Shown here: piece after piece, positions 29,884 to 63,336 of the stretch
Position numbering within the stretch: position 1 is the stretch's first letter
Layout: each line of letters begins with the position of its first letter
Source of the DNA: Candidatus Heimdallarchaeum aukensis
Lineage (GTDB): Archaea; Asgardarchaeota; Heimdallarchaeia; Heimdallarchaeales; Heimdallarchaeaceae
DNA: 64,000 nucleotides
NCBI GenBank assembly: GCA_021513695.1
Contig: CP084166.1
Location: 2,080,001-2,144,000 of the forward strand
Reading direction: 5' to 3'
The notes under the pieces: generated by a model
Told to the model about the DNA's origin: nothing
Seen by the model: the letters and a program-made list of their open reading frames with translations, nothing else
The model's database searches: none
Made by a program: the position numbers and the translations under genes

Positions 29884-30822
29884 GTGAATGACAAAGTACT
29901 AAAGGTAGGAAAAGAATCAGTACCCGTAACTATACTTGGGTTAGAAAATGCTGGAAAAACCACTCTAATTGAGAGGTTAAAAACAGGTTCTTTTGTAGAA
30001 GATACAACTCCTACATTAGGTGTAAGCTTTGAATCTTTTAAAGTAGGTGATACTTTATTCAAGATTTTTGATGTTGGGGGACAATTTGTTTATCGAAAAC
30101 AGTTTTGGGTAAATTACGCATCAAATAGCTATGGTATTATCTTTGTATTTGATGCCTCCGATAAAGAAAGAACAACAGAAGGAAAAGAGTGGTTCTGGTA
30201 TCTAATAGACAATATTGAAATTGAAGACCGAATAGTTGTAGCTTTTTTTGCTAATAAAGCCGATTTAGAATGCATGTCAATAGAAGAAATTATTGAAGCG
30301 CTTGAACTCCCAAGGATGAGTGAGCACTCAAAGATTAGTTTCCAAATATTTAAGACAAGTAATAAAACAGGCGAAGGAATAGACGCTGCATTAGATTGGT
30401 TTACAAACAAACTAAAACAAATAGGAAAAGAAAAAATAGTCCATCCAAAAGGTTTGATTATAAGTACAACACTAGGCAGAGTGCAGTTATTCTTAGATCT
30501 TGAAGGATTATCACAACAAATATCGCAAATCAGAGAATTATTAGCTCAAATATTTAAATATGAATCAGCTACGCTCAAAGAAGAAAAATTATCTACTATT
30601 TCAAACGAGAATATAAAACTCGTATGTCACGAAAGAAGTGACGTGATAATAACAATGATCATAAATCCAGAAGAATCTCATGTAGAAGCTCAAAGATATA
30701 TTGAGCAAGTGTATGAATACTTAGAAAAGAAAACAGCAAAAACGAAAGATGAGCTTATAAAAGGAATATTAAACTTACTAAATATTAAAGATGAAAGTAA
30801 AGTTAAGATAATTACAATGTAA
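29884..30822 (+). CDS. Arf-family small GTPase (Asgard ArfR-like) fused to a roughly 130-aa C-terminal alpha/beta domain (possibly roadblock/longin-like); GTG start
   Basis: G1 GLENAGKTT; interswitch TTPTLGVSFESF; G3 DVGGQ; WVNY..GIIFVFDASDKER; G4 NKAD; G5 region KTSNKTGEGIDAALDWF. These match the Arf1 blocks GLDAAGKTT/TIPTIGFNVE/DVGGQ/NKQD/SGDGLYEGLDWL. Confidence 0.7.
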   Translation: MNDKVLKVGKESVPVTILGLENAGKTTLIERLKTGSFVEDTTPTLGVSFESFKVGDTLFKIFDVGGQFVYRKQFWVNYASNSYGIIFVFDASDKERTTEGKEWFWYLIDNIEIEDRIVVAFFANKADLECMSIEEIIEALELPRMSEHSKISFQIFKTSNKTGEGIDAALDWFTNKLKQIGKEKIVHPKGLIISTTLGRVQLFLDLEGLSQQISQIRELLAQIFKYESATLKEEKLSTISNENIKLVCHERSDVIITMIINPEESHVEAQRYIEQVYEYLEKKTAKTKDELIKGILNLLNIKDESKVKIITM

Positions 30823-35179: not shown

Positions 35180-35701
35180 TTAAGTCTCATTTTGATTTAC
35201 TATTTTAGCAATATATAACTCATTGCCATTTTGTATCATATCAATTTCTATTGTTTCGGGAAACTGATTGTTAGGAATCAAAATATTTGTTAACATAAAA
35301 AAGTCACTTGGTATAATATCTCTTTTCATATTTCTAATTTCTTCCTCTGAAAACCATGAAAGATTTCCTTCGTCTGTTTCTTTTACTTTTCCAGCTTTTA
35401 CTGTTGTCTCAGCCAAGAAAATAAGAAATTGTTTTAGTTGTTTCTTTGTATTATGATCAATTAAACGTTCGTTTATTATAGCTGTCTGTTTTTCCCATTT
35501 TACTCTCAAATTAGTTTCTTCTAAAACTTCTCGTAAACATGCTTCTTTAATTGTTTCTCCAAATTCTAACTTTCCTCCTACTAGGGCCCATTTTCCGATA
35601 TAATCTCCTCTCTCTCGACGAATCAATAGCCATTTATTTTCTACTGTGTCACGTATTCCTGCTACTACAACGTTTAAAATTCTACTTTTAGTTTCGCTCA
35701 T
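35180..35701 (-). CDS. NUDIX hydrolase
   Basis: Nudix box GGKLEFGETIKEACLREVLEETNL. Confidence 0.8.
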   Translation of the reverse strand: MSETKSRILNVVVAGIRDTVENKWLLIRRERGDYIGKWALVGGKLEFGETIKEACLREVLEETNLRVKWEKQTAIINERLIDHNTKKQLKQFLIFLAETTVKAGKVKETDEGNLSWFSEEEIRNMKRDIIPSDFFMLTNILIPNNQFPETIEIDMIQNGNELYIAKIVNQNET

Positions 35702-35789
35702 ATCTTCTTATTATGTTTATATCATTAATTATTTTTCCTTCGAAATGAAATCCTTATAAACATTTATTATTTCTCGAAATCAAGAGACA

Positions 35790-36389
35790 ATGTCCAACAG
35801 AATGAATCAATTATTGCTCTCAATCCGAAGACGATTGGGAAAGCCAGAAGTTTCTATATTGATTATGGGAAATGATACTCCAGCAGCTAGGAACAGAGTA
35901 AAACTATTGAATGCAGAAATCTCAATTGATGATTTTCTCTTAGATGACTATCTTTCTAAGCTTCCAGTTGAAGACAAGTTTAAGTTTAAACCTAAACTTT
36001 TCGAATCATTTGAGGGGATTTTGTACCTTATCGATGCTACAAAAGAAGATATGATTAAGCATGAGCGAGCTTTCTTCTGGGAAAAAATCGTTTGGAACGA
36101 GGATATAAGAGAGAAGCCAATTGCAATTTGTGCTTATAATAGTAATTTACAAGGCTCTTTAACCAGTGGAGAACTCATAGAGAATCTGTCACTTGTTAGA
36201 TTAACAGATAGGGTTTGGAAGTTATTTGAGGTTGGAGACGTTAACGACTTATTAAGCGCATTAAACTGGCTTAAGGAAGCGATATGGATGGGTTGGACAT
36301 TAGATTGGGAAAGAAAAGAAAGTCTTAAAACTAAACTTTCTCAAAAAAAGATTGTTATTGTAGATAAGAAAAATGATAATGAATCTTAA
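35790..36389 (+). CDS. Arf-like pseudoGTPase (Arf-type N-terminal amphipathic helix and C-terminal blocks retained; P-loop, switch II and NKxD degenerate)
   Basis: Manual alignment to Arf1: [14 protein letters not shown] vs RILMVGLDAAGKTT (Lys lost); [12 protein letters not shown] vs [22 protein letters not shown] vs [31 protein letters not shown] vs [34 protein letters not shown] vs GDGLYEGLDWL. Confidence 0.55.
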   Translation: [199 protein letters not shown]

Positions 36390-36427: not shown

Positions 36428-37981
36428 ATGGTCAATACAGTTGAGGAATTAATAAAAACTGGCTATAAAGGGTATTCAGTTAGGCATATATTAATGAATA
36501 ACGAATTTAGAAAACGTGTAATCAATGATCCAAGTGTTAGAGGAAATGAAGACGCAAAGAATTTAGTCATGGATAAGCTTGCTGTCGGAGGAAAAGTACT
36601 TATCACAGGTCCTACAGGAGAAGCTAAAACGCTATTCAGTCGTATTCTCCTAGATCACATAGTTCGAGAAATTAATGATCATAAGTATCATATTGATTCC
36701 TGTCCTTTCCTTGAGGACGCAGGATACATTATTGATGTTATCGAGCAATTTGAAGTTGATCCGTTCAATGGAATAAAGGTTTTACAATCTCTTTGTCCTT
36801 TCTGTAGAGCTAAAATTGAAAATGCTTTGAGTGATGGGAAAGGAGATGTAAAATTAGATAATACAGCAAGTGTTCTTAAAACTAAACCCGTTGAATTCAA
36901 AGAAAAATTATTAAAAATCGGTGTAGAAAAAACTGTTGTACGAAAAGCACAACTTGACCCAAGAACAGACCCTGAAAGTCTCTATATGCTATTAGCTGGT
37001 GTAGAAAATCTAGAAGAACTGTTTGGAAAGGAAACTTCAACAACTTACACTCCAACATCACATAAAGTAGGTGTGCTTAGTAAAGGTTTTATTGTAGTTA
37101 ACGAAATTCAACGTCTTCCCCTATCCTTGCTCGAAGCACTGATGGGCTTTCTTGAAGACACAACTTCAATAAAGTATAATCTTCAAGGAGAACCTGTTTA
37201 TATTGATGGAGCAATGATATTTACTTCTAATGCTCCCTTAACAGTATTTGGAGAAGAATCACAACCTATTATCAATCGTATTCCAGAAGTTCTTTGGCCT
37301 GCAAGATCCGTGGAAAGTAGAAGTCAAATTGTTCGAGATATGTTTAGAGAACAAATTACGCTTTCTAGACAAAAAATAACCGCAAATCCAAGCATTGTTC
37401 AGTTGTATGATCGAGAAAAAAGCTCGAAGGATTATGTGAGTAAATTAGCCATAGATTTCCTCGCATTCATTGGAAATAACTCTTTACCAGAAGCTCTTAA
37501 AAAAGGACGAATTCGTTCTGAAAGTAGAGTTCAAAGATTAGACTTTTACGCAGGATTAGATGAAATCCATGATCCTCAAAGAAATCCACATATCGATTTA
37601 CGTACAACATCAAACATTGTGGGTAGCGTGTTGCTCAATAGAGAACGAGAACTTCAAGACGAAGAATATAATGTTGTTACAATAGAACATGTAAGAAAAG
37701 TATTAAACGATTACGATATTCCTTTAGCAATGATAAATGATGCACTACAGGAAATAAAAATAAAACTTAGATCCAACCTTAAAAGCGCGGGAATGGCTGT
37801 AAAAGCAGAAGATATAAGTGAAGATATATCAAAGATGAAGGCATTAAGTGACGAAGAATTATCCGAATTGATTATCAATTACGAAAAACTAGAACGATAC
37901 TATGAATCAGATGTTTTACCTAAAATCGTTGAACAACTCAAACCGAGTTATGAAGCTCTATTGAAGGTAGACTATATCTAA
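36428..37981 (+). CDS. MoxR-family AAA+ ATPase-like protein with Walker B Asp replaced by Asn and a roughly 100-aa Cys-containing insertion between Walker A and B
   Basis: Walker A GPTGEAKT matches the MoxR pattern GxPGxAKT. Walker B and sensor region FIVVNEIQRLPLSLLEALMGFLED matches MoxR LLADEINRAPPKTQSALLEAMQE. Inserted cysteines are SCPF ... CPFC. Confidence 0.55.
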   Translation: MVNTVEELIKTGYKGYSVRHILMNNEFRKRVINDPSVRGNEDAKNLVMDKLAVGGKVLITGPTGEAKTLFSRILLDHIVREINDHKYHIDSCPFLEDAGYIIDVIEQFEVDPFNGIKVLQSLCPFCRAKIENALSDGKGDVKLDNTASVLKTKPVEFKEKLLKIGVEKTVVRKAQLDPRTDPESLYMLLAGVENLEELFGKETSTTYTPTSHKVGVLSKGFIVVNEIQRLPLSLLEALMGFLEDTTSIKYNLQGEPVYIDGAMIFTSNAPLTVFGEESQPIINRIPEVLWPARSVESRSQIVRDMFREQITLSRQKITANPSIVQLYDREKSSKDYVSKLAIDFLAFIGNNSLPEALKKGRIRSESRVQRLDFYAGLDEIHDPQRNPHIDLRTTSNIVGSVLLNRERELQDEEYNVVTIEHVRKVLNDYDIPLAMINDALQEIKIKLRSNLKSAGMAVKAEDISEDISKMKALSDEELSELIINYEKLERYYESDVLPKIVEQLKPSYEALLKVDYI

Positions 37982-38006: not shown

Positions 38007-39392
38007 ATGCCCCATCGAATTTTTTTACTTACGGAATCAGAGTTTAGAGACCCTCTACAAAATTACGGCGATGCTGAGTTTATATTAGACTTTGAAGGTG
38101 CTGCTGAATTATTAAAACTTTGGCGTAATCCTCACCTAGGTAGGAGCTCTAGAGAAGGAGCTGTACTATCTTTAGGTGCAAAAAACGCTGTTGCAATCCA
38201 AAACATACTCCAAAAAATAATGACAACATATCTTACTGAAGCAGAAGAAGAGAGACTAATTAATGAACTAAAAATATTACAGTTTATTGGAGATAGAGTC
38301 CTCCCTGATGTTCTAGAACGTGTAAACAAGAACGAACTTCAAACAGTGGACGATATTATTCGATACATCCAGAATTTACTACGAGAACTGAAGTATGAGG
38401 GAACAGTTGATCTTAACCTTCTTGCAGATAAGTTGAACTCTCTTAAAGACATTGTTGATTTAGAAATTACAGATGCATACGGAAGAAAGAAGAGGATAAA
38501 ACGAGAAGAAGTGATGGATGTTTTAGGTAACATCCTTGGGCATTACCTTTTAAAGCAAATCAATGTTCTTCCTATTGATGAAGTTCAAAAACGCCCAAGA
38601 GGAACAATTAGACTTCGAGAAACCTATAAAAGTGCAGTGCTTAGTTCGCAATCAATTCCTCCAACGCGCGTAAAACAAGAAGATATTATCCGTGTGAAAA
38701 AAGATAGAAGAAGTTTAGTATATTTCTTAGTGGATTTAAGCCAATCAATGCAAAAAGAAGTGTTTGAGGGGGGAATGACAAGGTTAGATGGAGCTCTATT
38801 AACTGCTCTAAGTCTATATTACTACTTTAAAACCGCCAATAGGAGAAAAAGAAAGAGATACGATATGTTTCAACTTGCAGTAGTCCCTATTGTTCGAAAC
38901 CCCTTTGTAGTAGATGATGATACAAAAATGGAAGATCTTTTATTGAATGCTAAAGCCAAAGGAAAGACACATACTGTAAGCAGTGTTTTGAAAGCTATTG
39001 AGCATGCTAAAGCACAGTATAAGCATAAAAATATTGATGTTCAACTTACAATTGTAACGGATGGTATGCCAAACATACCTGTTTATCCATTTAATTACAA
39101 AATTAGTTCTTCATTAAAGAATTATTTCAATTCAATCGATACTAAAACCAGTCCAGAGACAATAGAGTGCTTGTTACAACTTAATGCCATATTTAAACAC
39201 TTAAAATCAGATCCTAATAGAAATTGGAACATAAGTTACTTTTTGATGGGTACAGAAGCTTTGAGAAAAAAGGAAATTTATAGTCATACGTATCAAATGT
39301 TGAAAGGTATAACTAAACCAATTTTAGTAGATCCTGCACAAATTAACAAACTTGGAGAGCAAGTACTACGGGAGAGTATTCACCATGCATAA
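38007..39392 (+). CDS. von Willebrand factor A (VWA) domain protein with a MIDAS motif
   Basis: The C-terminal half has LVYFLVDLSQSM (DxSxS MIDAS) and a downstream IVTDGMPN. A helical N-terminal half precedes it. It lies 25 nt after the AAA+ gene. Confidence 0.65.
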   Translation: MPHRIFLLTESEFRDPLQNYGDAEFILDFEGAAELLKLWRNPHLGRSSREGAVLSLGAKNAVAIQNILQKIMTTYLTEAEEERLINELKILQFIGDRVLPDVLERVNKNELQTVDDIIRYIQNLLRELKYEGTVDLNLLADKLNSLKDIVDLEITDAYGRKKRIKREEVMDVLGNILGHYLLKQINVLPIDEVQKRPRGTIRLRETYKSAVLSSQSIPPTRVKQEDIIRVKKDRRSLVYFLVDLSQSMQKEVFEGGMTRLDGALLTALSLYYYFKTANRRKRKRYDMFQLAVVPIVRNPFVVDDDTKMEDLLLNAKAKGKTHTVSSVLKAIEHAKAQYKHKNIDVQLTIVTDGMPNIPVYPFNYKISSSLKNYFNSIDTKTSPETIECLLQLNAIFKHLKSDPNRNWNISYFLMGTEALRKKEIYSHTYQMLKGITKPILVDPAQINKLGEQVLRESIHHA

Positions 39393-40977
39393 AGAAGAAT
39401 TAGCTGACATCATTGATGTGTATCTGCAAGCAAGAAAAGATTTCTTAGAACTGGTAGGTGAAACACCAGAGAATTATAGAATACTTATTTTTCTTAACCC
39501 TGATTTACATATTTCTGTTAACAGGGTGATTGAAAGTGCAGGAACTCCCCAGGCAATCTTAACTGCTGAAGAAGTTGTTCATCTACAATCAGCAAGAAAT
39601 AATGAATATATGCCGTTAGGGAAAGAAACAGTTTTTAACAGCATACCCACACTAATTTATCTTTCAACACCTCGTTATGAATTGACAGAGGAAGAGAAAA
39701 TAACTTTGAGAATAATGATAGTTCATGCTTTTGCTCATGCCTATATGAATGAAAAAACAGAATCCAATAATCCTAAACAGTTATCTCGCATATACCAACT
39801 AGATGTAATTTTAAAAGAATTATTCCAAAATAATGCTTACAAAATTAACGAAGAAACAAACAAACAGTTGATGTGGACTTGGCAGTACTATCAAGATCTA
39901 ATAAGCGTTATACGATTGTTTGTTGAGGCTGGAGTACAAGACTTTTATTCTCCTCCTGAAGAAGCAAGAAAATACACTTTATTCAACAACTTTTCAATTG
40001 AGGTTATTAAGGTTCTAAAGGAAAGAGCAAAAGAATCAAGAAAGAAACATCTCCACGATTTAATCGATGAAGGATTTGCATTCTATATTCAAAGGATGCA
40101 TTTAGATTATTTGAATAAAAATAAACAAGTCCCCAAGAATCTTCCTAAAGAACTTAAACCCTTTATGGCTCCCCCTGTTGGAAAAATAAGTTTGTTCTTA
40201 GTTGATAAACTAAAATTGGCTATAAGCGAACAAATAGAAAAGGAGAAAAAGGAGAGCCTTTCGTCAGAAGAAATTGAAAAAAGATTGTTTGATAAACTGT
40301 TTAGCTTTAGGACTGATTTAGAATTTCTTGAGACTTTTGATTGGCAAGAGCTAAAAAATTGGGTGTCTGAACAAAAAAGAGCTCATTCAGAAAAAGTGTT
40401 AAAGGATTGGCATGTAACAACTACCAATTTCACTGATATTTGGTCTGTTTATGCTTATGGTTGGACACAACTGGAAAATTACATCAAAAAGATATATAGA
40501 AAGAAATACAGTACTTTTGGACAATTGATGGATGATAACCCAAAAATAGAATTCAAGGGATATTTAACTGTTGATGAAAAGAAAGTTTATGTCTTTGAAA
40601 TCAATAACGAAGGTGTGGGACTAGATCAATTGGTTATTTTGCATAATCACATGGCTTTATATCGTGAAGATTTTGCTACCATACTTCCTGCTTTTGCAGA
40701 CATTATCGCTTTCAAAAAAATCAGAGGTATGCACGTTGCAACTTTGTTTGCTGTCCATAAAATTAGTAGAAAACAACCAATTAGTCCCTATAACTTGCCT
40801 ATTGTGACTAGAGCTGTTCAAGTAACGAAAAGAAAGGATGCATACAAAACTGAACTCGATGAAGAAAAAGAGAAAATGGAAGTTGAACGAGTAGACTATA
40901 CACATTTGAAGAAACTCTCTCAACCTCAAAGAAACGCTATAAGTTATCTAATAAAGGAAGGAATGTACTATGTTTAA
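39352..40977 (+). CDS. hypothetical 541-aa mostly alpha-helical protein in the AAA+/VWA operon
   Basis: ORF overlapping the neighbours on both sides. No recognizable catalytic motif. Confidence 0.4.
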   Translation: MESKYYGRVFTMHKEELADIIDVYLQARKDFLELVGETPENYRILIFLNPDLHISVNRVIESAGTPQAILTAEEVVHLQSARNNEYMPLGKETVFNSIPTLIYLSTPRYELTEEEKITLRIMIVHAFAHAYMNEKTESNNPKQLSRIYQLDVILKELFQNNAYKINEETNKQLMWTWQYYQDLISVIRLFVEAGVQDFYSPPEEARKYTLFNNFSIEVIKVLKERAKESRKKHLHDLIDEGFAFYIQRMHLDYLNKNKQVPKNLPKELKPFMAPPVGKISLFLVDKLKLAISEQIEKEKKESLSSEEIEKRLFDKLFSFRTDLEFLETFDWQELKNWVSEQKRAHSEKVLKDWHVTTTNFTDIWSVYAYGWTQLENYIKKIYRKKYSTFGQLMDDNPKIEFKGYLTVDEKKVYVFEINNEGVGLDQLVILHNHMALYREDFATILPAFADIIAFKKIRGMHVATLFAVHKISRKQPISPYNLPIVTRAVQVTKRKDAYKTELDEEKEKMEVERVDYTHLKKLSQPQRNAISYLIKEGMYYV

Positions 40978-41719
40978 AAGATGGTTAATGATAAAAAAAT
41001 TAGGAAGCGAAATAGACTTAGATAGACTAAAAGCTGTTCTTTTTTTAAGAAAGAAAGGGAAAGACAAGGACATCAATAATCTTTTGCCACTTTTAAGTGA
41101 CAAGGATTGGAATGTAAGAAACGCTACAGCATTGACTATAATTAAACTCGTTAATCTTTATCCAGAAAAAAAAGAGGAAATCCTACTAAAGCTTCATCAA
41201 TTACTTGAAAAGAGATCCTTAGCTACAAAACTGTCTGTATTGGAAATCCTGGGACAGTTAAGAGACTATTCCTCGAAAGATTTTATCAAAAAAATTATTG
41301 AAGAAAGTGATTATGATTTACAATATGCAGCTATTAGAGCAATAGGTTATCTTGATGACGTTGACATTTTATCTTCTTTGAAAGAAGTGGTTTACTCAAA
41401 AGATTACATCACACGAAGAGCAGTGATCTTTTCAATATTGCGAATAGTTAATTCAGTTGAAGAAGAAAAGAAAGTTGAACTCCTAACTCCTCACATCCAC
41501 TTATTAATTCAAGTTTATTTAGAGTTAAATGAATTGGGCGAGGTAATCTATAAAATCCTAGATTACGGAGATCCAGAGCAATTTCCAGGAATGAAACCGT
41601 ATTCAGAATTTGAGATAATCAGATTAACTTCATTAATTGAACAATACGATTATCGAGTTCCAGTCTATAAGAACTTTGCAAAAATAATTTATCCTCTTTA
41701 TTTTCCTTTAAATAGTTGA
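40970..41719 (+). CDS. HEAT/PBS-lyase-like repeat protein
   Basis: Repeated roughly 30-aa units of the form LLxLLxDxDWxVRxxAxxAL (LLPLLSDKDWNVRNATALTIIKL; AAIRAIGYLDDVDILSSL; RRAVIFSILRIV). Confidence 0.55.
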   Translation: MFKRWLMIKKLGSEIDLDRLKAVLFLRKKGKDKDINNLLPLLSDKDWNVRNATALTIIKLVNLYPEKKEEILLKLHQLLEKRSLATKLSVLEILGQLRDYSSKDFIKKIIEESDYDLQYAAIRAIGYLDDVDILSSLKEVVYSKDYITRRAVIFSILRIVNSVEEEKKVELLTPHIHLLIQVYLELNELGEVIYKILDYGDPEQFPGMKPYSEFEIIRLTSLIEQYDYRVPVYKNFAKIIYPLYFPLNS

Positions 41720-42815: not shown

Positions 42816-44798
42816 ATGCCATTAAACATCGAAACTCCTTTTACTCCTAAAGGAGACCAACCTAAAGCTATTGAACAATTAGTGGAAGGAATAAAAAAAG
42901 GGTATAAACTACAGACACTTTTAGGGACTACGGGAAGCGGGAAAACTGACAGCATAGCATGGGTCATTGACCGTCTTAAACTTCCCACTTTGGTTATTGC
43001 CCCTAACAAAACTCTCGCTGCTCAACTTTATGGTGAGTTTAAAGTTCTTTTTCCTTCAGCTCGTGTTGAGTATTTTGTTAGTTTTTATGATTATTATCAA
43101 CCTGAAGCTTATCTTCCTTCCAAGGATCTTCTTATTGAGAAAGATTTTGATATTAACGAAGAAATTGAACGCTTACGCCATTCTGCCACCGAAGCATTAG
43201 CTACTCGCGATGACGTGATAGTTGTTGCTTCTGTTAGTTGTATTTATGGCATTGGAGACCCTGCAATCTATCGAGCAAAGCGTTTAGAGCTTGTTGTTGG
43301 ACAAGAATTTGATAGAGAAGAGTTAATGACACAACTCATCAATAACCGATATGAACGTAACGATATTAATCTAACTAGAGGAAAGTTTAGGGTTCGGGGA
43401 GACACTATCGATATTTTTCCTCAGTATGGAGATTATATTTATCGTGTAGAATTTTTCGGAGATGAAATAGAAAGATTAACTTCCAGAGATCCTGTTACAT
43501 ATAACCAAGTTCGTGAATTCCAAGAACTCACCTTTTATCCTGGAACACATTATCTTACTCGTGATAATTTATTTGACCAAGCTTTAGCTGATATAGAACA
43601 AGAGCTGGAAGAACGATTGGCTGAATTAAAAAGTCAAGGTAAACTTGTTGAATATCAAAGGCTCAAACAACGGACGAAATATGATCTAGAATTACTAAGA
43701 GAGACAAAATATTGTCCTGGAATTGAAAATTATTCTCGTCATTTAGACAGAAGAAAAAAAGGAGAACCTCCTTATACTCTGATGGATCATATGCCTGATG
43801 ATTTTCTTTTGGTAATTGATGAGAGTCATCTTACTATTCCACAAATAAAAGGAATGTTTGGTGGAGACTATTCTCGAAAAAAGAATCTAGTAGATTATGG
43901 TTTTAGATTACCTAGCGCTTTTGATAATAGACCTTTAAAATTTGATGAATTTAAGAAATATATGAAAAAAGTCATCTTTACTAGTGCAACTCCTGGGCCT
44001 TATGAAATTGAGCACTCTGAACAGATAGTGGAGCAGATTATTAGACCTACAGGGCTTGTAGATCCTAAAATTGAAGTAAGAAAAACAGAAGGGCAAATTG
44101 ATGACCTATTAGGAGAAATAAAAAAACAAGTTAGGAAGGGTGGTAGAGTACTTGTTACCACATTAACAAAAGACAACGCTGAGATGCTTTCGGATTATTT
44201 AATTGATAACGGAATCAACTCTGTCTATTTACATCATGAAGTAGATACATTAGACAGAATAAACATATTAAGGGACTTAAGAATCGGAAAATATGATGTC
44301 ATAGTTGGGATTAATCTTCTTCGTGAAGGACTAGACCTTCCAGAAGTAGGGTTAGTCGCTATTCTTGATGCAGATAAAGAAGGTTTTCTAAGATCTAAAA
44401 GCTCTCTAATTCAATTAATGGGTAGAGCAAGTAGAAACGTTAGCGGGAGTGTTATTTTGTATGCTGATAAAATTACAGATTCTATGAAAGAAGCTATATT
44501 TGAGAATAACAGACGAAGAAGAATACAGATAGAATATAATCGAAAACATGGAATTAACCCTCAAACAATAAAGAAAGAAGTGAAATCCATAGTAGAAACT
44601 TTAATGCAAGTGTCTCAAAAGGAGGAAGAGGAAGAGATAACTATTGATAGAAGTGAACTCACAGTAGAAAAGATAATGGCTATTATCAATGAACTAAAAG
44701 AGAAAATGGCAGAAGCTGCTGCCAACCTAGAATTTGAAAAAGCTGCTATTTACAGAGATAAAATACGTGAAATTGAGAAGCAGGTAGATACTAAATGA
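42816..44798 (+). CDS. uvrB: excinuclease ABC subunit B
   Basis: UvrB N-terminal signature (TPFTPKGDQPKAIEQLVEGI), helicase Walker A GTTGSGKT, and a C-terminal UvrB/UvrC-interaction helix (ANLEFEKAAIYRDKIREIE). Confidence 0.9.
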   Translation: MPLNIETPFTPKGDQPKAIEQLVEGIKKGYKLQTLLGTTGSGKTDSIAWVIDRLKLPTLVIAPNKTLAAQLYGEFKVLFPSARVEYFVSFYDYYQPEAYLPSKDLLIEKDFDINEEIERLRHSATEALATRDDVIVVASVSCIYGIGDPAIYRAKRLELVVGQEFDREELMTQLINNRYERNDINLTRGKFRVRGDTIDIFPQYGDYIYRVEFFGDEIERLTSRDPVTYNQVREFQELTFYPGTHYLTRDNLFDQALADIEQELEERLAELKSQGKLVEYQRLKQRTKYDLELLRETKYCPGIENYSRHLDRRKKGEPPYTLMDHMPDDFLLVIDESHLTIPQIKGMFGGDYSRKKNLVDYGFRLPSAFDNRPLKFDEFKKYMKKVIFTSATPGPYEIEHSEQIVEQIIRPTGLVDPKIEVRKTEGQIDDLLGEIKKQVRKGGRVLVTTLTKDNAEMLSDYLIDNGINSVYLHHEVDTLDRINILRDLRIGKYDVIVGINLLREGLDLPEVGLVAILDADKEGFLRSKSSLIQLMGRASRNVSGSVILYADKITDSMKEAIFENNRRRRIQIEYNRKHGINPQTIKKEVKSIVETLMQVSQKEEEEEITIDRSELTVEKIMAIINELKEKMAEAAANLEFEKAAIYRDKIREIEKQVDTK

Positions 44799-46606
44799 AT
44801 ATTGTTTCTGATATAGAAAGATTACCTACTGGTCCTGGAGTATATTTGATCAAAGATTCAGAGGGAAATGTAATCTATATCGGAAAAGCTAAAAATCTAA
44901 AAGATAGAGTTAAACAACATTTTTCTGAAACATCTTCAGAAATAAAGAAAGAACGAGCTATTCAAGAACAAGCTTACAATATAGATTTCTTAGAAACAAG
45001 AACAGAAACAGAAGCAATATTGCTTGAAAGAAGATTGATTAAAGATATTAAACCTAAACTAAATGTTAGAAGTAAGGATGATAAATCCTCTCTTCTTATC
45101 CGTATTAGTAAAGAAGAACCATTTCCTCAATTATATGTAGTAAGAGAAACAGATCCTCACGTAGAAGGGAGCATCTATTTTGGTCCTTATGGGTACGACA
45201 GGAAACTAAGGGATACAGTAAAACTAGTTTTGAAACTATTCCCTATAGCTAATTGTGGTGAAAAATTATACAAATATAGAGAAAAGAAAAGTGTAAACCG
45301 ATGTATGCGTAAAAGAATAGGTCAATGTATTGCTTGTGATAAGAGCGTGAGTCCAGAGAAATATAATCAGATAGTTGAAAATGTGATAAACTTTTTAGAA
45401 GGAAATGTGGGCGCACTTCTAGATTCCTTGGAAAAAGAAATGTGGGAAGAAGGAAAAAAAGAAAATTTTGAACGTGCTGCAGTTCTACGCGATCTAATAA
45501 ATTCTGTTAGAAAAATAGTCTCCATTCAGAAAGAAAACAATTTTGACGTAGATGATATAGTTGTAATAGCAACCAGAGAAGAGCAAGAAGTATTATCCTT
45601 CTGTAAAATTGAAATTAAAAATAAAAGAATCAATCGTATAATTTCAGATTCTATCGTTCTTGAAACAAAAAGTGAAAATTTTACTCTCTCTAATTTATTG
45701 TCTTTAATAGGTACTAATCCTTCTGAAATAGACCATTTAGTTGTAGATGAGGTTTTTATTAAAAAAATCCAAAATGATCTAAAAGTTAAACTAATTACCC
45801 CTGATAGTAAAATATTGAAAGATGTATTCACTATAGCAAAAAGGAACGCTTTTAACGAGCTTGCACGTTATTTTAGCTCAAAAACACGTGAGAAAAACAT
45901 CAAAAAAGTATTAGAAGATATGAAAGTAATTCTAAAACTCCCTAAGCTCCCTATAATTATACACGGATATGACATTTCTACTCTTGGAGGAAAACACTCA
46001 ACAGGCTCATGTGTTGTGTTCAAGAACGGGAAACCTGAAAAAAGATATTATAAACAATTTAAAATAAGACAAGAATATTCTGACCCAAATGACTACGCTA
46101 TGATGCGTGAAGTGTTAAGAAGACATTATTCAAATTACAATGATTTTGATGAACCCCAACCTGATCTAATTTTACTTGATGGAGGAAAAGGTCAACTTAA
46201 TGTTGCAGTTAAAGTATTAAAAGAATTAAAGTTGGACTTGCCTTTAGTTTCAATAGCAAAAAAAGAGGAAGAACTTTTTGTTCCATGGGATACAAATCCT
46301 GTAGTCCTTCCAAGAGAATCTGAAGTGTTGAAACTTCTTCAACAAATAAGAGATGAAGCTCACCGTTTTGCCATTCAATACTCAAAACAACTGAGAACAA
46401 GAAAATTAGGTCGTTCTACTTTTGAAAAAATAAAAGGAATAGGACCAAAAAAAGCTGTATTGTTGAACACCTATTTTGATAATTTACAGGATATAGGAAG
46501 TGCCTCTGTTGCTGAAATAATGAAATTAATTAAAGTAGATGAGCAAACAGCGGTTCAAGTTTTAAATTTAGCAAAAAACTTGACAAATTCAGTTTCTTTT
46601 GAATAA
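44795..46606 (+). CDS. uvrC: excinuclease ABC subunit C
   Basis: GIY-YIG N-terminus (GPGVYLIKDSEGNVIYIGKAKNLKDRVKQHF), a UvrBC-binding region and a C-terminal HhH. It overlaps uvrB by 4 nt. Confidence 0.85.
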   Translation: MNIVSDIERLPTGPGVYLIKDSEGNVIYIGKAKNLKDRVKQHFSETSSEIKKERAIQEQAYNIDFLETRTETEAILLERRLIKDIKPKLNVRSKDDKSSLLIRISKEEPFPQLYVVRETDPHVEGSIYFGPYGYDRKLRDTVKLVLKLFPIANCGEKLYKYREKKSVNRCMRKRIGQCIACDKSVSPEKYNQIVENVINFLEGNVGALLDSLEKEMWEEGKKENFERAAVLRDLINSVRKIVSIQKENNFDVDDIVVIATREEQEVLSFCKIEIKNKRINRIISDSIVLETKSENFTLSNLLSLIGTNPSEIDHLVVDEVFIKKIQNDLKVKLITPDSKILKDVFTIAKRNAFNELARYFSSKTREKNIKKVLEDMKVILKLPKLPIIIHGYDISTLGGKHSTGSCVVFKNGKPEKRYYKQFKIRQEYSDPNDYAMMREVLRRHYSNYNDFDEPQPDLILLDGGKGQLNVAVKVLKELKLDLPLVSIAKKEEELFVPWDTNPVVLPRESEVLKLLQQIRDEAHRFAIQYSKQLRTRKLGRSTFEKIKGIGPKKAVLLNTYFDNLQDIGSASVAEIMKLIKVDEQTAVQVLNLAKNLTNSVSFE

Positions 46607-63233: not shown

Positions 63234-63336
63234 TGGTGGGGACGGCACGACTTGAACGCGCGACCAACAGGTATCTACGTTTTTTCAAATTATTAAACTC
63301 TGGAGCCTGCCACTCTACCTACTGAGCTACGTCCCC
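63234..63336 (-). tRNA. tRNA-Trp (anticodon CCA) with a roughly 27-nt intron at the canonical 37/38 position; CCA encoded
   Basis: The minus-strand fold gives acceptor GGGGACG/CGTCCCC, D-arm GCTC-AGTAGGTA-GAGT, anticodon stem GCAGG/CCTGT with loop CTCCAG(A) interrupted by GTTTAATAATTTGAAAAAACGTAGAT, and T-arm GCGCG-TTCAAGT-CGTGC. Confidence 0.7.

What the first reader, a model, noticed from the sequence alone, without database searches (positions are those of the whole stretch)
35790..36389. Arf-fold protein with a dead P-loop: candidate prokaryotic pseudoGTPase
By manual alignment the 199-aa protein tracks human Arf1 block by block. An Arf-like amphipathic N-terminal helix of about 17 aa precedes the G domain. 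The Arf P-loop, interswitch, post-switch II, G4 and C-terminal blocks each have counterparts (listed in the feature entry). But the P-loop Lys/Thr is gone (AARN). The DVGGQ switch II segment is deleted by about 13 aa. NKQD has become NSNL. So the fold is retained while GTP binding and hydrolysis are very likely lost. PseudoGTPases acting as constitutive scaffolds are known in eukaryotes. An Arf-type one in an archaeal operon would be new.
Basis: seen in the sequence. Interest (0 to 1): 0.75.

Follow-up and report, generated by a model that had tools for sequence, protein, structure and literature searches.

The report
Dead Arf GTPase in Asgard operon
A Heimdallarchaeal (Asgard) gene encodes a well-conserved Arf-type small GTPase that has lost every nucleotide-binding motif, and it heads a conserved five-gene operon with an AAA+-like ATPase, a vWA/MIDAS protein, an unknown protein and a HEAT-repeat protein, which gives an Asgard Arf relative a defined set of likely partners.

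The parts
35702..35789 (.). AT-rich intergenic region between the divergent NUDIX gene (35180-35701, minus strand) and the pseudo-Arf gene. It is the presumed promoter region of the five-gene operon.
   Evidence: Sequence read and ORF map. TATA-like TTATAAAC / TTTATTATTT elements lie about 30-40 nt upstream of the ATG, seen by eye. No archaeal promoter tool was available, so this is an inference.
35790..36389 (+). Pseudo-Arf gene (K9W45_09415), 199 aa. It has an Arf-family G-domain fold with all five G motifs lost.
35793..35834 (+). Residues 2-15, the N-terminal basic helix ([14 protein letters not shown]). It aligns to the Arf N-terminal helix.
   Evidence: Helix in the model, alignment to Arf1 residues 1-17, net charge +4/+5 with weak amphipathicity.
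35868..35897 (+). Residues 27-36, the former P-loop [10 protein letters not shown]. G27, P31, A32, R34, N35 and R36 are invariant or nearly so in subfamily 1 only.
   Evidence: The region is not conserved in subfamilies 2 and 3.
36075..36095 (+). Residues 96-102, FWEKIVW on helix alpha3. W97 and W102 are invariant across the subfamilies sampled in alignments A5 and A11.
36135..36146 (+). Residues 116-119, Y-N-S-N at the position of the G4 motif NKxD.
36153..36218 (+). Residues 122-143, [22 protein letters not shown] (alpha4 to beta6). This Arf-specific block is the most conserved part of the superfamily: L124, E131, S134, L135, R137 and D140 are invariant.
36306..36380 (+). Residues 173-197, a charged C-terminal helix extending beyond the G domain.
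   Evidence: Model, with pLDDT falling from about 89 to 55. W173, K176, E177 and L179 are invariant in subfamily 1.
36428..37981 (+). AAA+-like P-loop ATPase, 517 aa. It has Walker A GPTGEAKT (61-68), a Walker B-like VVNE (223-226, with Asn in place of Asp), a TSNAP sensor-1-like motif, NR284 as an Arg-finger candidate, and an invariant H88/C92/C123/C126 cluster in a ~90-aa insert between Walker A and Walker B.
   Evidence: All 9 members hit Sigma54_activat (best E = 4.5e-5) and AAA_5, and 3 of 9 hit Mg_chelatase, all below gathering scores. No PDB sequence match.
38007..39392 (+). vWA-domain protein, 461 aa. It has a ~230-aa helical N-terminal region followed by a vWA domain with a complete MIDAS signature (D243-x-S245-x-S247, T321, D352).
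   Evidence: The ortholog in L012 passes the Pfam VWA_2 gathering score (30.1 against 27).
39385..40977 (+). Conserved protein of unknown fold, about 530 aa ('gene 4'). Its start overlaps the vWA stop by 8 nt.
   Evidence: No Pfam, NCBIfam, PDB or PADLOC match.
40970..41719 (+). HEAT-repeat protein, 249 aa. Its start overlaps the gene 4 stop by 8 nt.
   Evidence: Pfam HEAT_2 scores 48.5 bits against a gathering score of 27.7.

Best explanation
The gene encodes an Arf-derived pseudoGTPase. It keeps the Arf G-domain core (beta1, alpha1, one interswitch strand, then beta4 to alpha5). Every element that binds or senses guanine nucleotide has been lost or deleted.

Shown:
- Homology and predicted fold are specifically Arf.
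- All five G motifs are lost in every relative examined.
- The gene is under strong purifying selection.
- It is the first gene of a tightly packed five-gene cassette, conserved across three pseudo-Arf subfamilies in Heimdallarchaeia.
- The residues conserved across the subfamilies lie on helix alpha3 (W97, W102) and in the alpha4-beta6 block (E131, S134, L135, R137, D140). None lies in the former nucleotide pocket.

Inferred:
- The protein no longer cycles between GTP and GDP states. It works as a constitutive, nucleotide-independent adaptor or scaffold subunit.
- It uses the alpha3 / alpha4-beta6 surface to dock onto one of its operon partners.
- It uses its basic N-terminus, and possibly the charged C-terminal helix, to bring the complex to an anionic target such as a membrane surface or nucleic acid.
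- The engine of the complex is the AAA+-like ATPase working with the vWA/MIDAS protein, in the manner of MoxR-vWA remodelling pairs: the vWA domain captures a substrate peptide through its MIDAS site, and the ATPase drives a conformational change. Gene 4 and the HEAT protein would be further structural or substrate-binding subunits.
- Position 1 of the cassette is interchangeable (pseudo-Arf, a Zn-ribbon protein, or nothing) while the four-gene core is never broken. The pseudo-Arf is therefore more likely a targeting or regulatory accessory than part of the catalytic core.
For: Arf homology:
- Pfam Arf above its gathering score.
- hhalign 96.8% over the full length against Arf1/Arl1/Arf6.
- 95.2% against the canonical paralog in the window, against 0.1% for H-Ras.

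Fold:
- AlphaFold model with pLDDT 91.2 and pTM 0.86.
- The top 50 Foldseek hits are all Arf family, and the best is HodArfR1-GDP (8OUL) at E = 3e-10.

Motif loss: column-by-column comparison and the census of 0 out of 68.

Selection: dN/dS 0.07-0.15 in seven pairs with unsaturated dS.

Operon:
- Intergenic gaps of 38 and 25 nt, then two 8-nt overlaps.
- The same five genes recur in subfamily 1, subfamily 2 with unrelated flanks and subfamily 3.
- 35 of 44 species-representative loci have the pseudo-Arf directly upstream. The four-gene core is complete in every locus not cut by a contig end.

Accessory status: loss or replacement is clade-specific on the tree of the AAA+ partner.

Partner identities: intact MIDAS, VWA_2 above its gathering score in an ortholog and HEAT_2 above its gathering score, and AAA+ motifs with consistent sub-threshold hits to Sigma54_activat and AAA_5 in all 9 members and to Mg_chelatase in 3 of 9.

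Soluble proteins: no TM-like segment in any of the five.

Precedent for MoxR-vWA action and for inactive NTPases as a third component: PMC7159879.
Against: - No binding or nucleotide assay exists, so 'nucleotide-free' is inferred from sequence alone.
- The confident model used an MSA that included canonical Arf-like sequences, which may pull it towards the Arf fold. The orthologs-only run was poor (pLDDT 45), although its C-terminal secondary structure agreed.
- Model coordinates could not be inspected. Pocket occlusion and the contiguity of the conserved patch are therefore untested.
- The AAA+ partner matches no Pfam family above threshold and no solved structure by sequence. Its Walker B Asp is an invariant Asn, so it may itself be a poor ATPase.
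- The N-helix is not significantly amphipathic in this protein and is missing in subfamily 3. This weakens the membrane-targeting idea.
- Which partner the pseudo-Arf contacts is unknown.
- The biological process served by the cassette is unknown.
Confidence: 0.6

Rival explanations
1. The protein still binds a nucleotide or another phosphorylated or anionic ligand through a rebuilt, non-canonical site. In subfamily 1 this could be the invariant R34-N35-R36 at the former P-loop/alpha1 junction. It would then still act as a ligand-regulated switch.
For: The P-loop keeps its length, and G27, D29, P31, A32, R34, N35 and R36 are invariant or nearly so in subfamily 1. Some proteins called pseudoGTPases do bind nucleotide, for example the N-terminal domain of p190RhoGAP (PMC10211241).
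Against: The RNR motif is not conserved in subfamilies 2 and 3, which carry the same cassette. No residue of the former pocket is invariant across the superfamily. Switch I, switch II, the NKxD Lys/Asp and SAK are all missing, so neither guanine recognition nor gamma-phosphate sensing remains. Pro31 sits inside the loop whose backbone amides normally hold the phosphates.
Confidence: 0.12
2. The pseudo-Arf acts on the canonical Arf-like GTPases of the same cell, as a decoy, heterodimer partner or regulator. It would not be a subunit of the AAA+/vWA cassette. The operon linkage would then reflect co-regulation only.
For: The same window encodes a canonical Arf-like GTPase about 5 kb away (29884-30822; Arf at 122.7 bits). 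It shares the FW-rich alpha3 and the alpha4-beta6 block. G-domain/G-domain pairs exist in eukaryotes, such as Arl13B-Arl3 (PDB 5DI3, among the hits) and the Rag heterodimers.
Against: Across three subfamilies the conserved neighbours are the four cassette genes, with overlapping or near-abutting reading frames. Canonical GTPases are not conserved neighbours. A Zn-ribbon protein can take the pseudo-Arf's place at position 1. That fits an interchangeable subunit of the cassette better than an Arf regulator.
Confidence: 0.1
3. The cassette is an anti-virus or conflict system of the MoxR-vWA 'ternary' type. The inactive NTPase would serve as sensor or threshold component, as in the iSTAND systems.
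For: The architecture resembles MoxR plus vWA plus inactive NTPase (PMC7159879). The HEAT protein gives weak PADLOC hits (E = 2.5e-4 and 1e-3).
Against: There is no effector domain such as a nuclease, protease or TIR. The AAA+ partner is very highly conserved (52-98% identity across the subfamily 1 and 2 loci, lower in subfamily 3) and the gene order is strictly syntenic. The cassette is present in 46 species-representative genomes of one archaeal class, and every contig examined carries a single copy. That is the pattern of a housekeeping complex, not of a patchy, fast-diversifying defence island. No PADLOC hit is significant.
Confidence: 0.05
4. The gene is a decaying relic or an annotation artefact, a degenerating Arf paralog with no function.
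For: All catalytic motifs are lost. The record itself annotates the protein as 'hypothetical protein'.
Against: dN/dS is 0.07-0.15. The ORFs are intact at 167-209 aa in dozens of MAGs. New family-specific residues are invariant. The operon position is conserved.
Confidence: 0.01

Closest known systems
Asgard Arf-family GTPases (ArfR / AArf; e.g. HodArfR1, PDB 8OUL, and GerdArfR1, 8OUN)
   Different: ArfR/AArf proteins have well-conserved G boxes, bind GTP and GDP, and show GTP-dependent membrane association (PMC11914678; bioRxiv 10.1101/2024.02.28.582541). The protein here lacks G1 to G5, switch I, one interswitch strand and switch II, and carries an extra C-terminal helix. The accessions tested are absent from the ArfR survey's supplementary tables.
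Eukaryotic nucleotide-free pseudoGTPases (CENP-M; p190RhoGAP pG1/pG2; the GTPase-like domain of Fbx4)
   Different: Those proteins are eukaryotic and derive from Ras/Rho-like or unassigned G domains, not from Arf. None is encoded in an operon with an AAA+/vWA pair. The present family is archaeal and Arf-specific.
MoxR-vWA chaperone pairs and their 'ternary' variants with an inactive NTPase (iSTAND systems)
   Same: An AAA+ ATPase is encoded next to a vWA/MIDAS protein, together with a catalytically dead P-loop NTPase and extra alpha-helical proteins (PMC7159879).
   Different: The dead NTPase here is an Arf-type small GTPase, not a STAND domain. There are no effector domains. The system is conserved and syntenic within one archaeal class rather than patchy. 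The ATPase is too divergent to be assigned to MoxR proper: Pfam hits are all sub-threshold and the Walker B Asp is Asn.
Dynein light intermediate chain (a Ras-like domain bound to an AAA+ motor)
   Same: It is a degenerate Ras-like G domain serving as an accessory subunit that links an AAA+ machine to cargo-binding elements (PMC4359372, abstract seen). This is an analogy only.
   Different: It is eukaryotic and Ras-like rather than Arf-like, with a different partner architecture. No homology is claimed or tested.

Membership tests
Arf family of small GTPases (Pfam PF00025) | Significant sequence match to the Arf family profile | tested here: met
   28.1 bits against a gathering score of 22.3, but covering only profile positions 78-173. 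hhalign gives 96.8% over the full length. H-Ras control gives 0.1%.
Arf family of small GTPases (Pfam PF00025) | Small-GTPase G-domain fold closest to Arf/Arl/Sar | tested here: met
Arf family of small GTPases (Pfam PF00025) | G1 P-loop GxxxxGK[ST] | tested here: not met
   The loop reads GNDTPAAR. None of 68 relatives has an in-register Walker A.
Arf family of small GTPases (Pfam PF00025) | G2/switch I threonine, and G3 WDxGGQ with the catalytic Gln (switch II) | tested here: not met
   Both segments are deleted, as gaps of about 7 and about 14 alignment columns. The model has no switch II helix.
Arf family of small GTPases (Pfam PF00025) | G4 NKxD and G5 SA[KT] guanine-recognition motifs | tested here: not met
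   YNSN lies at the G4 position, and there is no SAK.
Arf family of small GTPases (Pfam PF00025) | Interswitch beta2-beta3 hairpin (the interswitch toggle) | tested here: not met
   The model shows a single strand (49-56) followed by a non-regular segment (57-75) in place of the hairpin. This rests on the prediction only.
Arf family of small GTPases (Pfam PF00025) | N-terminal amphipathic helix, often myristoylated at Gly2 | tested here: inconclusive
   The helix at 2-15 is predicted and aligned. It is basic, has no Gly2, and has a hydrophobic moment no better than shuffles in this protein (p = 0.1-0.3). 17 of 33 family members reach p < 0.05. It is absent in subfamily 3.
Arf family of small GTPases (Pfam PF00025) | GTP binding and hydrolysis, with nucleotide-dependent effector binding | not testable with these tools
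   Needs recombinant protein.
PseudoGTPases (nucleotide-free class, e.g. CENP-M, p190RhoGAP pG1/pG2) | G-domain fold retained while the motifs needed for nucleotide binding are lost | tested here: met
PseudoGTPases (nucleotide-free class, e.g. CENP-M, p190RhoGAP pG1/pG2) | Maintained by selection, so functional and not a pseudogene | tested here: met
   dN/dS 0.07-0.15. Family-specific invariant residues. Conserved operon position.
PseudoGTPases (nucleotide-free class, e.g. CENP-M, p190RhoGAP pG1/pG2) | Demonstrated absence of nucleotide binding | not testable with these tools
   Needs ITC, DSF or HPLC on purified protein.
MoxR-vWA AAA+ chaperone systems | vWA-domain protein with a MIDAS site encoded next to the ATPase | tested here: met
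   DxSxS...T...D is invariant. VWA_2 is above its gathering score in the L012 ortholog. Adjacency holds in all loci.
MoxR-vWA AAA+ chaperone systems | ATPase belongs to the MoxR / helix-2-insert clade of AAA+ | tested here: inconclusive
   Walker A, a Walker B-like NE, sensor-1-like and Arg-finger-like motifs, and a large insert between Walker A and Walker B. All 9 members hit Sigma54_activat and AAA_5 and 3 of 9 hit Mg_chelatase, but only below gathering scores. No PDB match by sequence.

The most novel reading that the evidence does not exclude
The five-gene cassette encodes a Heimdallarchaeial machine in which an Arf-derived subunit has been frozen into a permanent, nucleotide-independent 'on' adaptor. 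This subunit would tether an AAA+/vWA/HEAT-solenoid complex to a membrane or cargo. That would make it an archaeal analog, or even an evolutionary relative, of eukaryotic assemblies in which Arf-family or Ras-like G domains recruit alpha-solenoid or AAA+ machinery, such as Arf-adaptin/coatomer or dynein-LIC and midasin-type systems. If so, it would be the first Asgard Arf-family protein with a genomically defined effector complex.
Probability: 0.08. Interest if true: 0.9.

Novelty: new variant of a known kind. Interest (0 to 1): 0.68.

Why it matters
Arf-family GTPases of Asgard archaea are currently studied as possible forerunners of eukaryotic membrane trafficking, but their archaeal partners are unknown. 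One reason is that, at least in strain MK-D1, Asgard small-GTPase genes generally do not sit in operons with their candidate regulators (PMC10933270).

This family is an exception. It is an Arf derivative that is strictly operon-linked to four defined proteins across three deep subfamilies. That gives a direct, testable hypothesis about what an Arf-fold protein binds in an archaeon.

As far as the searchable literature shows, it would also be the first prokaryotic Arf-type pseudoGTPase. If so, the conversion of small GTPases into nucleotide-independent scaffolds is not confined to eukaryotes.

The partner proteins are a divergent AAA+ with a Zn-ribbon-like insert and an Asn in Walker B, a MIDAS-vWA protein, an orphan ~520-aa protein and a HEAT protein. 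Together they form an undescribed conserved complex of Heimdallarchaeia.

Tried and rejected
- **AlphaFold on the 33 close orthologs alone.** This gave an unusable model (pLDDT 45). It was solved by adding distant pseudo-Arf subfamilies and Arf-like sequences from the exhaustive profile search.
- **Sequence and profile searches of the AAA+, vWA and gene 4 proteins against PDB.** Nothing meaningful was found.
- **NCBIfam.** No hits for any of the first four cassette proteins; the HEAT protein was not scanned.
- **PADLOC defence models.** Only insignificant hits, so the defence-system reading was rejected, also on conservation grounds.
- **The search for related loci with the broad pseudo-Arf alignment.** This failed for lack of a conserved stretch. 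It was replaced by the AAA+ partner as probe and by a narrower alignment for the metagenome scan.
- **AFDB fold search.** The library was unavailable.
- **Supplementary tables of the ArfR survey.** They do not contain the accessions tested. The AArf paper has no supplements held as text.
- **Literature searches** for archaeal pseudoGTPases and for Asgard MoxR/vWA systems returned nothing relevant.
- **Decaying pseudogene.** Considered and rejected on dN/dS.
- **Membrane protein complex.** Considered and rejected because no TM-like segments were found.
- **Link to the neighbouring UvrB/UvrC genes.** The neighbourhood is not conserved in L008 or in the subfamily 2 and 3 loci.
Full report
**1. 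What is at the coordinates**

ORF 35790-36389 on the + strand (ATG to TAA, 199 aa) is present as described. An exact-sequence look-up identifies it as K9W45_09415 of Candidatus Heimdallarchaeum aukensis, an Asgard archaeon. The record annotates it as a hypothetical protein, and some orthologs are auto-named 'ADP-ribosylation factor-like protein'. The window has about 33% G+C.

**2. Is it an Arf homolog?**

Yes, and specifically Arf.
- Pfam Arf (PF00025) scores 28.1 bits against a gathering score of 22.3, but only over residues 70-164.
- phmmer against PDB gives about 80 matches at E up to 10, and all 60 listed are Arf/Arl chains. The best is Arl1 at E = 1.4e-5, and Asgard Arf structures 8OUL and 8OUK are among them.
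- A profile of 33 orthologs compared by hhalign with Arf1/Arl1/Arf6 gives 96.8% probability and E = 3e-10. It aligns residues 1-163 to Arf1 residues 1-175, so it includes the N-terminal helix and beta1.
- A broader superfamily profile gives 96.9% against the Arf trio. It gives 95.2% against the canonical Arf-like paralog encoded in the same window, and 0.1% against H-Ras.

**3. Structure**

AlphaFold2 on the close orthologs alone was poor, with pLDDT 45. An MSA of 118 sequences, made of three pseudo-Arf subfamilies plus Arf-like hits from the exhaustive search, gave mean pLDDT 91.2 and pTM 0.86.

The predicted elements are:
- helix 2-15
- beta 21-28
- helix 31-43
- a single strand 49-56
- a confidently placed but irregular segment 57-75
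- beta 76-82
- helix 86-101
- beta 111-116
- helix 126-132
- beta 143-148
- helix 151-166
- an extra helix 173-197

Compared with Arf, one interswitch strand and the switch II helix are missing.

There is one caveat. Canonical Arf-like rows in the MSA may bias the model towards Arf. However, the independent profile evidence and the matching C-terminal secondary structure in the first run point the same way.

**4. The G motifs**

In the deep alignment:

| Motif | Canonical Arf | This protein |
|---|---|---|
| G1 | GLDxAGKT | G27-N-D-T-P-A-A-R34 (same loop length; Lys to Ala/Thr, Thr to an Arg invariant in subfamily 1) |
| G2 | switch I PTxGFN | deleted, about 7 residues |
| G3 | WDxGGQ plus switch II | deleted, about 14 residues |
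| G4 | NKQD | Y116-N-S-N119 |
| G5 | SA[KT] | absent |

A regex census was run over the 118 sequences. None of the 68 proteins carrying the family signature (FWE..IW and LSLxRLTDR) has an in-register Walker A or NKxD. Most of the ordinary Arf-like proteins found by the same search have GLxxxGKT, DxxG and NKxD.

**5. The family**

The word-indexed search finds 32 to 46 close orthologs at 53-96% identity, and those that carry a source name are almost all labelled as Heimdallarchaeaceae or Heimdallarchaeota MAGs, apart from one 'Thorarchaeota' bin. The exhaustive profile search of 1.84 billion representatives finds 110 hits. After the family itself come more distant P-loop-less relatives, P0053 to P0065, at 21-27% identity. 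Ordinary Arf-like proteins follow.

Three subfamilies emerge:
- Subfamily 1 is the Heimdallarchaeaceae type, which includes the window.
- Subfamily 2 includes a protein labelled Kariarchaeaceae.
- Subfamily 3 is the P0055 type.

The residues invariant across the subfamilies are W97, W102, L124, E131, S134, L135, R137 and D140. These lie on helix alpha3 and in the Arf-specific alpha4-beta6 block. None lies in the former nucleotide pocket. The R34-N35-R36 motif is invariant only in subfamily 1.

dN/dS between ortholog pairs is 0.07-0.15, so the protein is under strong purifying selection.

**6. N-terminus**

Residues 2-15 are predicted helical and align with the Arf N-helix. The segment is basic (+4 to +5) and has no Gly2. 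In this protein its hydrophobic moment is no greater than that of shuffles (p = 0.1-0.3, against 0.003 for Arf1). Across the family, 17 of 33 members reach p < 0.05, and the median net charge is +4. Subfamily 3 has only a short basic N-terminus. The 'Arf-like amphipathic helix' is therefore only weakly supported.

**7. Genomic context**

In the window the pseudo-Arf gene is followed by four genes:
- after 38 nt, a 517-aa protein
- after 25 nt, a 461-aa protein
- with an 8-nt overlap, a ~530-aa protein
- with an 8-nt overlap, a 249-aa protein

The same five genes, in the same order, occur in every ortholog locus examined:
- subfamily 1: L001-L009
- subfamily 2: L010-L012, with entirely different flanks, FKBP upstream and SHMT or others downstream
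- subfamily 3: L059, L061 and L064

Using the AAA+ partner as a probe against one genome per species gave 46 loci, nearly all labelled Heimdallarchaeota or Kariarchaeota, with a few unclassified archaeal MAGs and one 'Thorarchaeota' bin. An HMM census of these loci shows:
- The four downstream genes are always together. Every incomplete case is cut by a contig end.
- The pseudo-Arf is immediately upstream in 35 of the 44 loci that have upstream sequence.
- It is divergent and 1.8 kb away in one locus, and absent in eight.

Of the eight without it, three carry an unrelated Zn-ribbon protein at position 1. On a tree of the AAA+ partner, absence or replacement is confined to discrete sub-clades, while both deep clades contain the pseudo-Arf. 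This favours ancestral presence followed by loss or replacement.

**8. The partners**

*The 517-aa protein* has an invariant Walker A (GPTGEAKT) and a Walker B-like hhhhNE in which Asn replaces the usual Asp in all nine sequences. It also has sensor-1-like TSNAP, an NR(I/V)P Arg-finger candidate, and an invariant H88/C92/C123/C126 cluster inside a ~90-residue insert between Walker A and Walker B. All nine members hit Sigma54_activat (best E = 4.5e-5) and AAA_5, and three hit Mg_chelatase, all below gathering scores. No solved structure is detectable by sequence. I call it a divergent AAA+-like ATPase, possibly of the MoxR/chelatase/sigma-54 assemblage. Its clade is not established.

*The 461-aa protein* has a complete MIDAS signature, and its L012 ortholog passes the VWA_2 gathering score.

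*The ~530-aa protein* matches nothing.

*The 249-aa protein* is a HEAT-repeat protein, with HEAT_2 at 48.5 bits.

None of the five has a TM-like segment. The AAA+ and vWA partners are far more conserved between subfamilies (52-57% and 44-45% identity) than the pseudo-Arf (about 23%).

**9. Interpretation**

The shown facts are these: an Arf-derived G domain stripped of every nucleotide-binding element, conserved under selection, with conservation moved to alpha3 and alpha4-beta6, and encoded as the first and interchangeable gene of an otherwise invariant AAA+/vWA/unknown/HEAT cassette.

The most economical explanation is a nucleotide-independent adaptor or scaffold subunit of an AAA+/vWA remodelling complex. 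The general MoxR-vWA mechanism, in which the vWA domain captures a peptide through MIDAS and the ATPase remodels it, is described in PMC7159879. So is the precedent of a catalytically dead NTPase as third component (the iSTAND systems).

Three things are inference or unknown: which partner the pseudo-Arf binds, what the basic termini target, and what process the complex serves.

The rivals are given in the structured fields: residual non-canonical ligand binding, regulation of canonical ArfRs, a defence system, and a decaying relic.

**10. Novelty**

Two recent surveys of Asgard Arf proteins describe proteins with intact G boxes and GTP-dependent behaviour (PMC11914678; bioRxiv 10.1101/2024.02.28.582541). 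One mentions unannotated divergent sequences but no pseudoGTPase class. The accessions tested here are not in its held supplements.

Full-text searches for archaeal pseudoGTPases, and for Asgard MoxR/vWA systems, found nothing relevant. The pseudoenzyme review consulted gives only eukaryotic pseudoGTPase examples (PMC10211241).

I rate this a new variant of a known kind: an Arf-type, archaeal, operon-embedded pseudoGTPase. It is of real interest to people working on Asgard cell biology and small GTPases because it offers a defined partner set. Its function remains unknown, and the key biochemical claim is untested.

Noticed in passing
window 29884-30822 (+): A canonical Arf-like GTPase of 312 aa lies about 5 kb upstream of the pseudo-Arf. 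Pfam Arf scores 122.7 bits over the full length, with G1 GLENAGKT, G3 DVGGQ and G4 NKAD. It has a C-terminal extension of about 130 aa with no Pfam match. It shares a WFW-type alpha3 and the alpha4-beta6 block with the pseudo-Arf.
   Followed up: partly
window 63237-63336 (-): Rfam tRNA match (54.4 bits) spanning 100 nt that ARAGORN did not report. It is probably an intron-containing archaeal tRNA.
   Followed up: no
window 36428-37981 (+): In the AAA+-like partner, the Walker B Asp is replaced by an invariant Asn (VVNE). An invariant His/Cys cluster (H88, C92, C123, C126), suggestive of a Zn ribbon, lies inside a ~90-aa insert between Walker A and Walker B. Both P-loop proteins of the operon are therefore atypical.
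   Followed up: partly
L050:5356-5937, L052:5333-5926, L054:2448-3254: In one sub-clade the pseudo-Arf is replaced at position 1 of the cassette by an unrelated 194-269-aa protein. That protein has an N-terminal CxxC...CxxC Zn-ribbon-like motif and a helical C-terminal part.
   Followed up: partly
L010:8191-8778 (-), L011:8131-8760 (-), L012:6721-7314 (+); also L039, L041, L046: An FKBP-type PPIase gene recurs just upstream of the cassette in the Kariarchaeaceae-type loci. In some loci the protein also has a hydrophobic segment and a C-terminal Cys-rich Zn-ribbon-like tail.
   Followed up: no
L011:9584-11088: The AAA+ gene of this locus is split into two ORFs of 198 and 295 aa. This could be a frameshift, an assembly error or a genuine split.
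   Followed up: no
L006:7268-9928: The UvrB ortholog downstream of the cassette carries an intein with a LAGLIDADG endonuclease domain. The window's UvrB (42816-44798) does not.
   Followed up: no
L004 / L031 (GCA_048883065.1, JBHLQZ010000001.1): A MAG labelled 'Candidatus Thorarchaeota' carries the Heimdallarchaeaceae-type cassette and pseudo-Arf at about 70% and 56% identity. The bin is probably mislabelled or mis-binned.
   Followed up: no
window 42816-46606 (+): UvrB and UvrC genes directly follow the cassette in most Heimdallarchaeaceae-type loci. They do not in L008 or in the subfamily 2 and 3 loci, so the neighbourhood is lineage-specific and probably not functional.
   Followed up: partly
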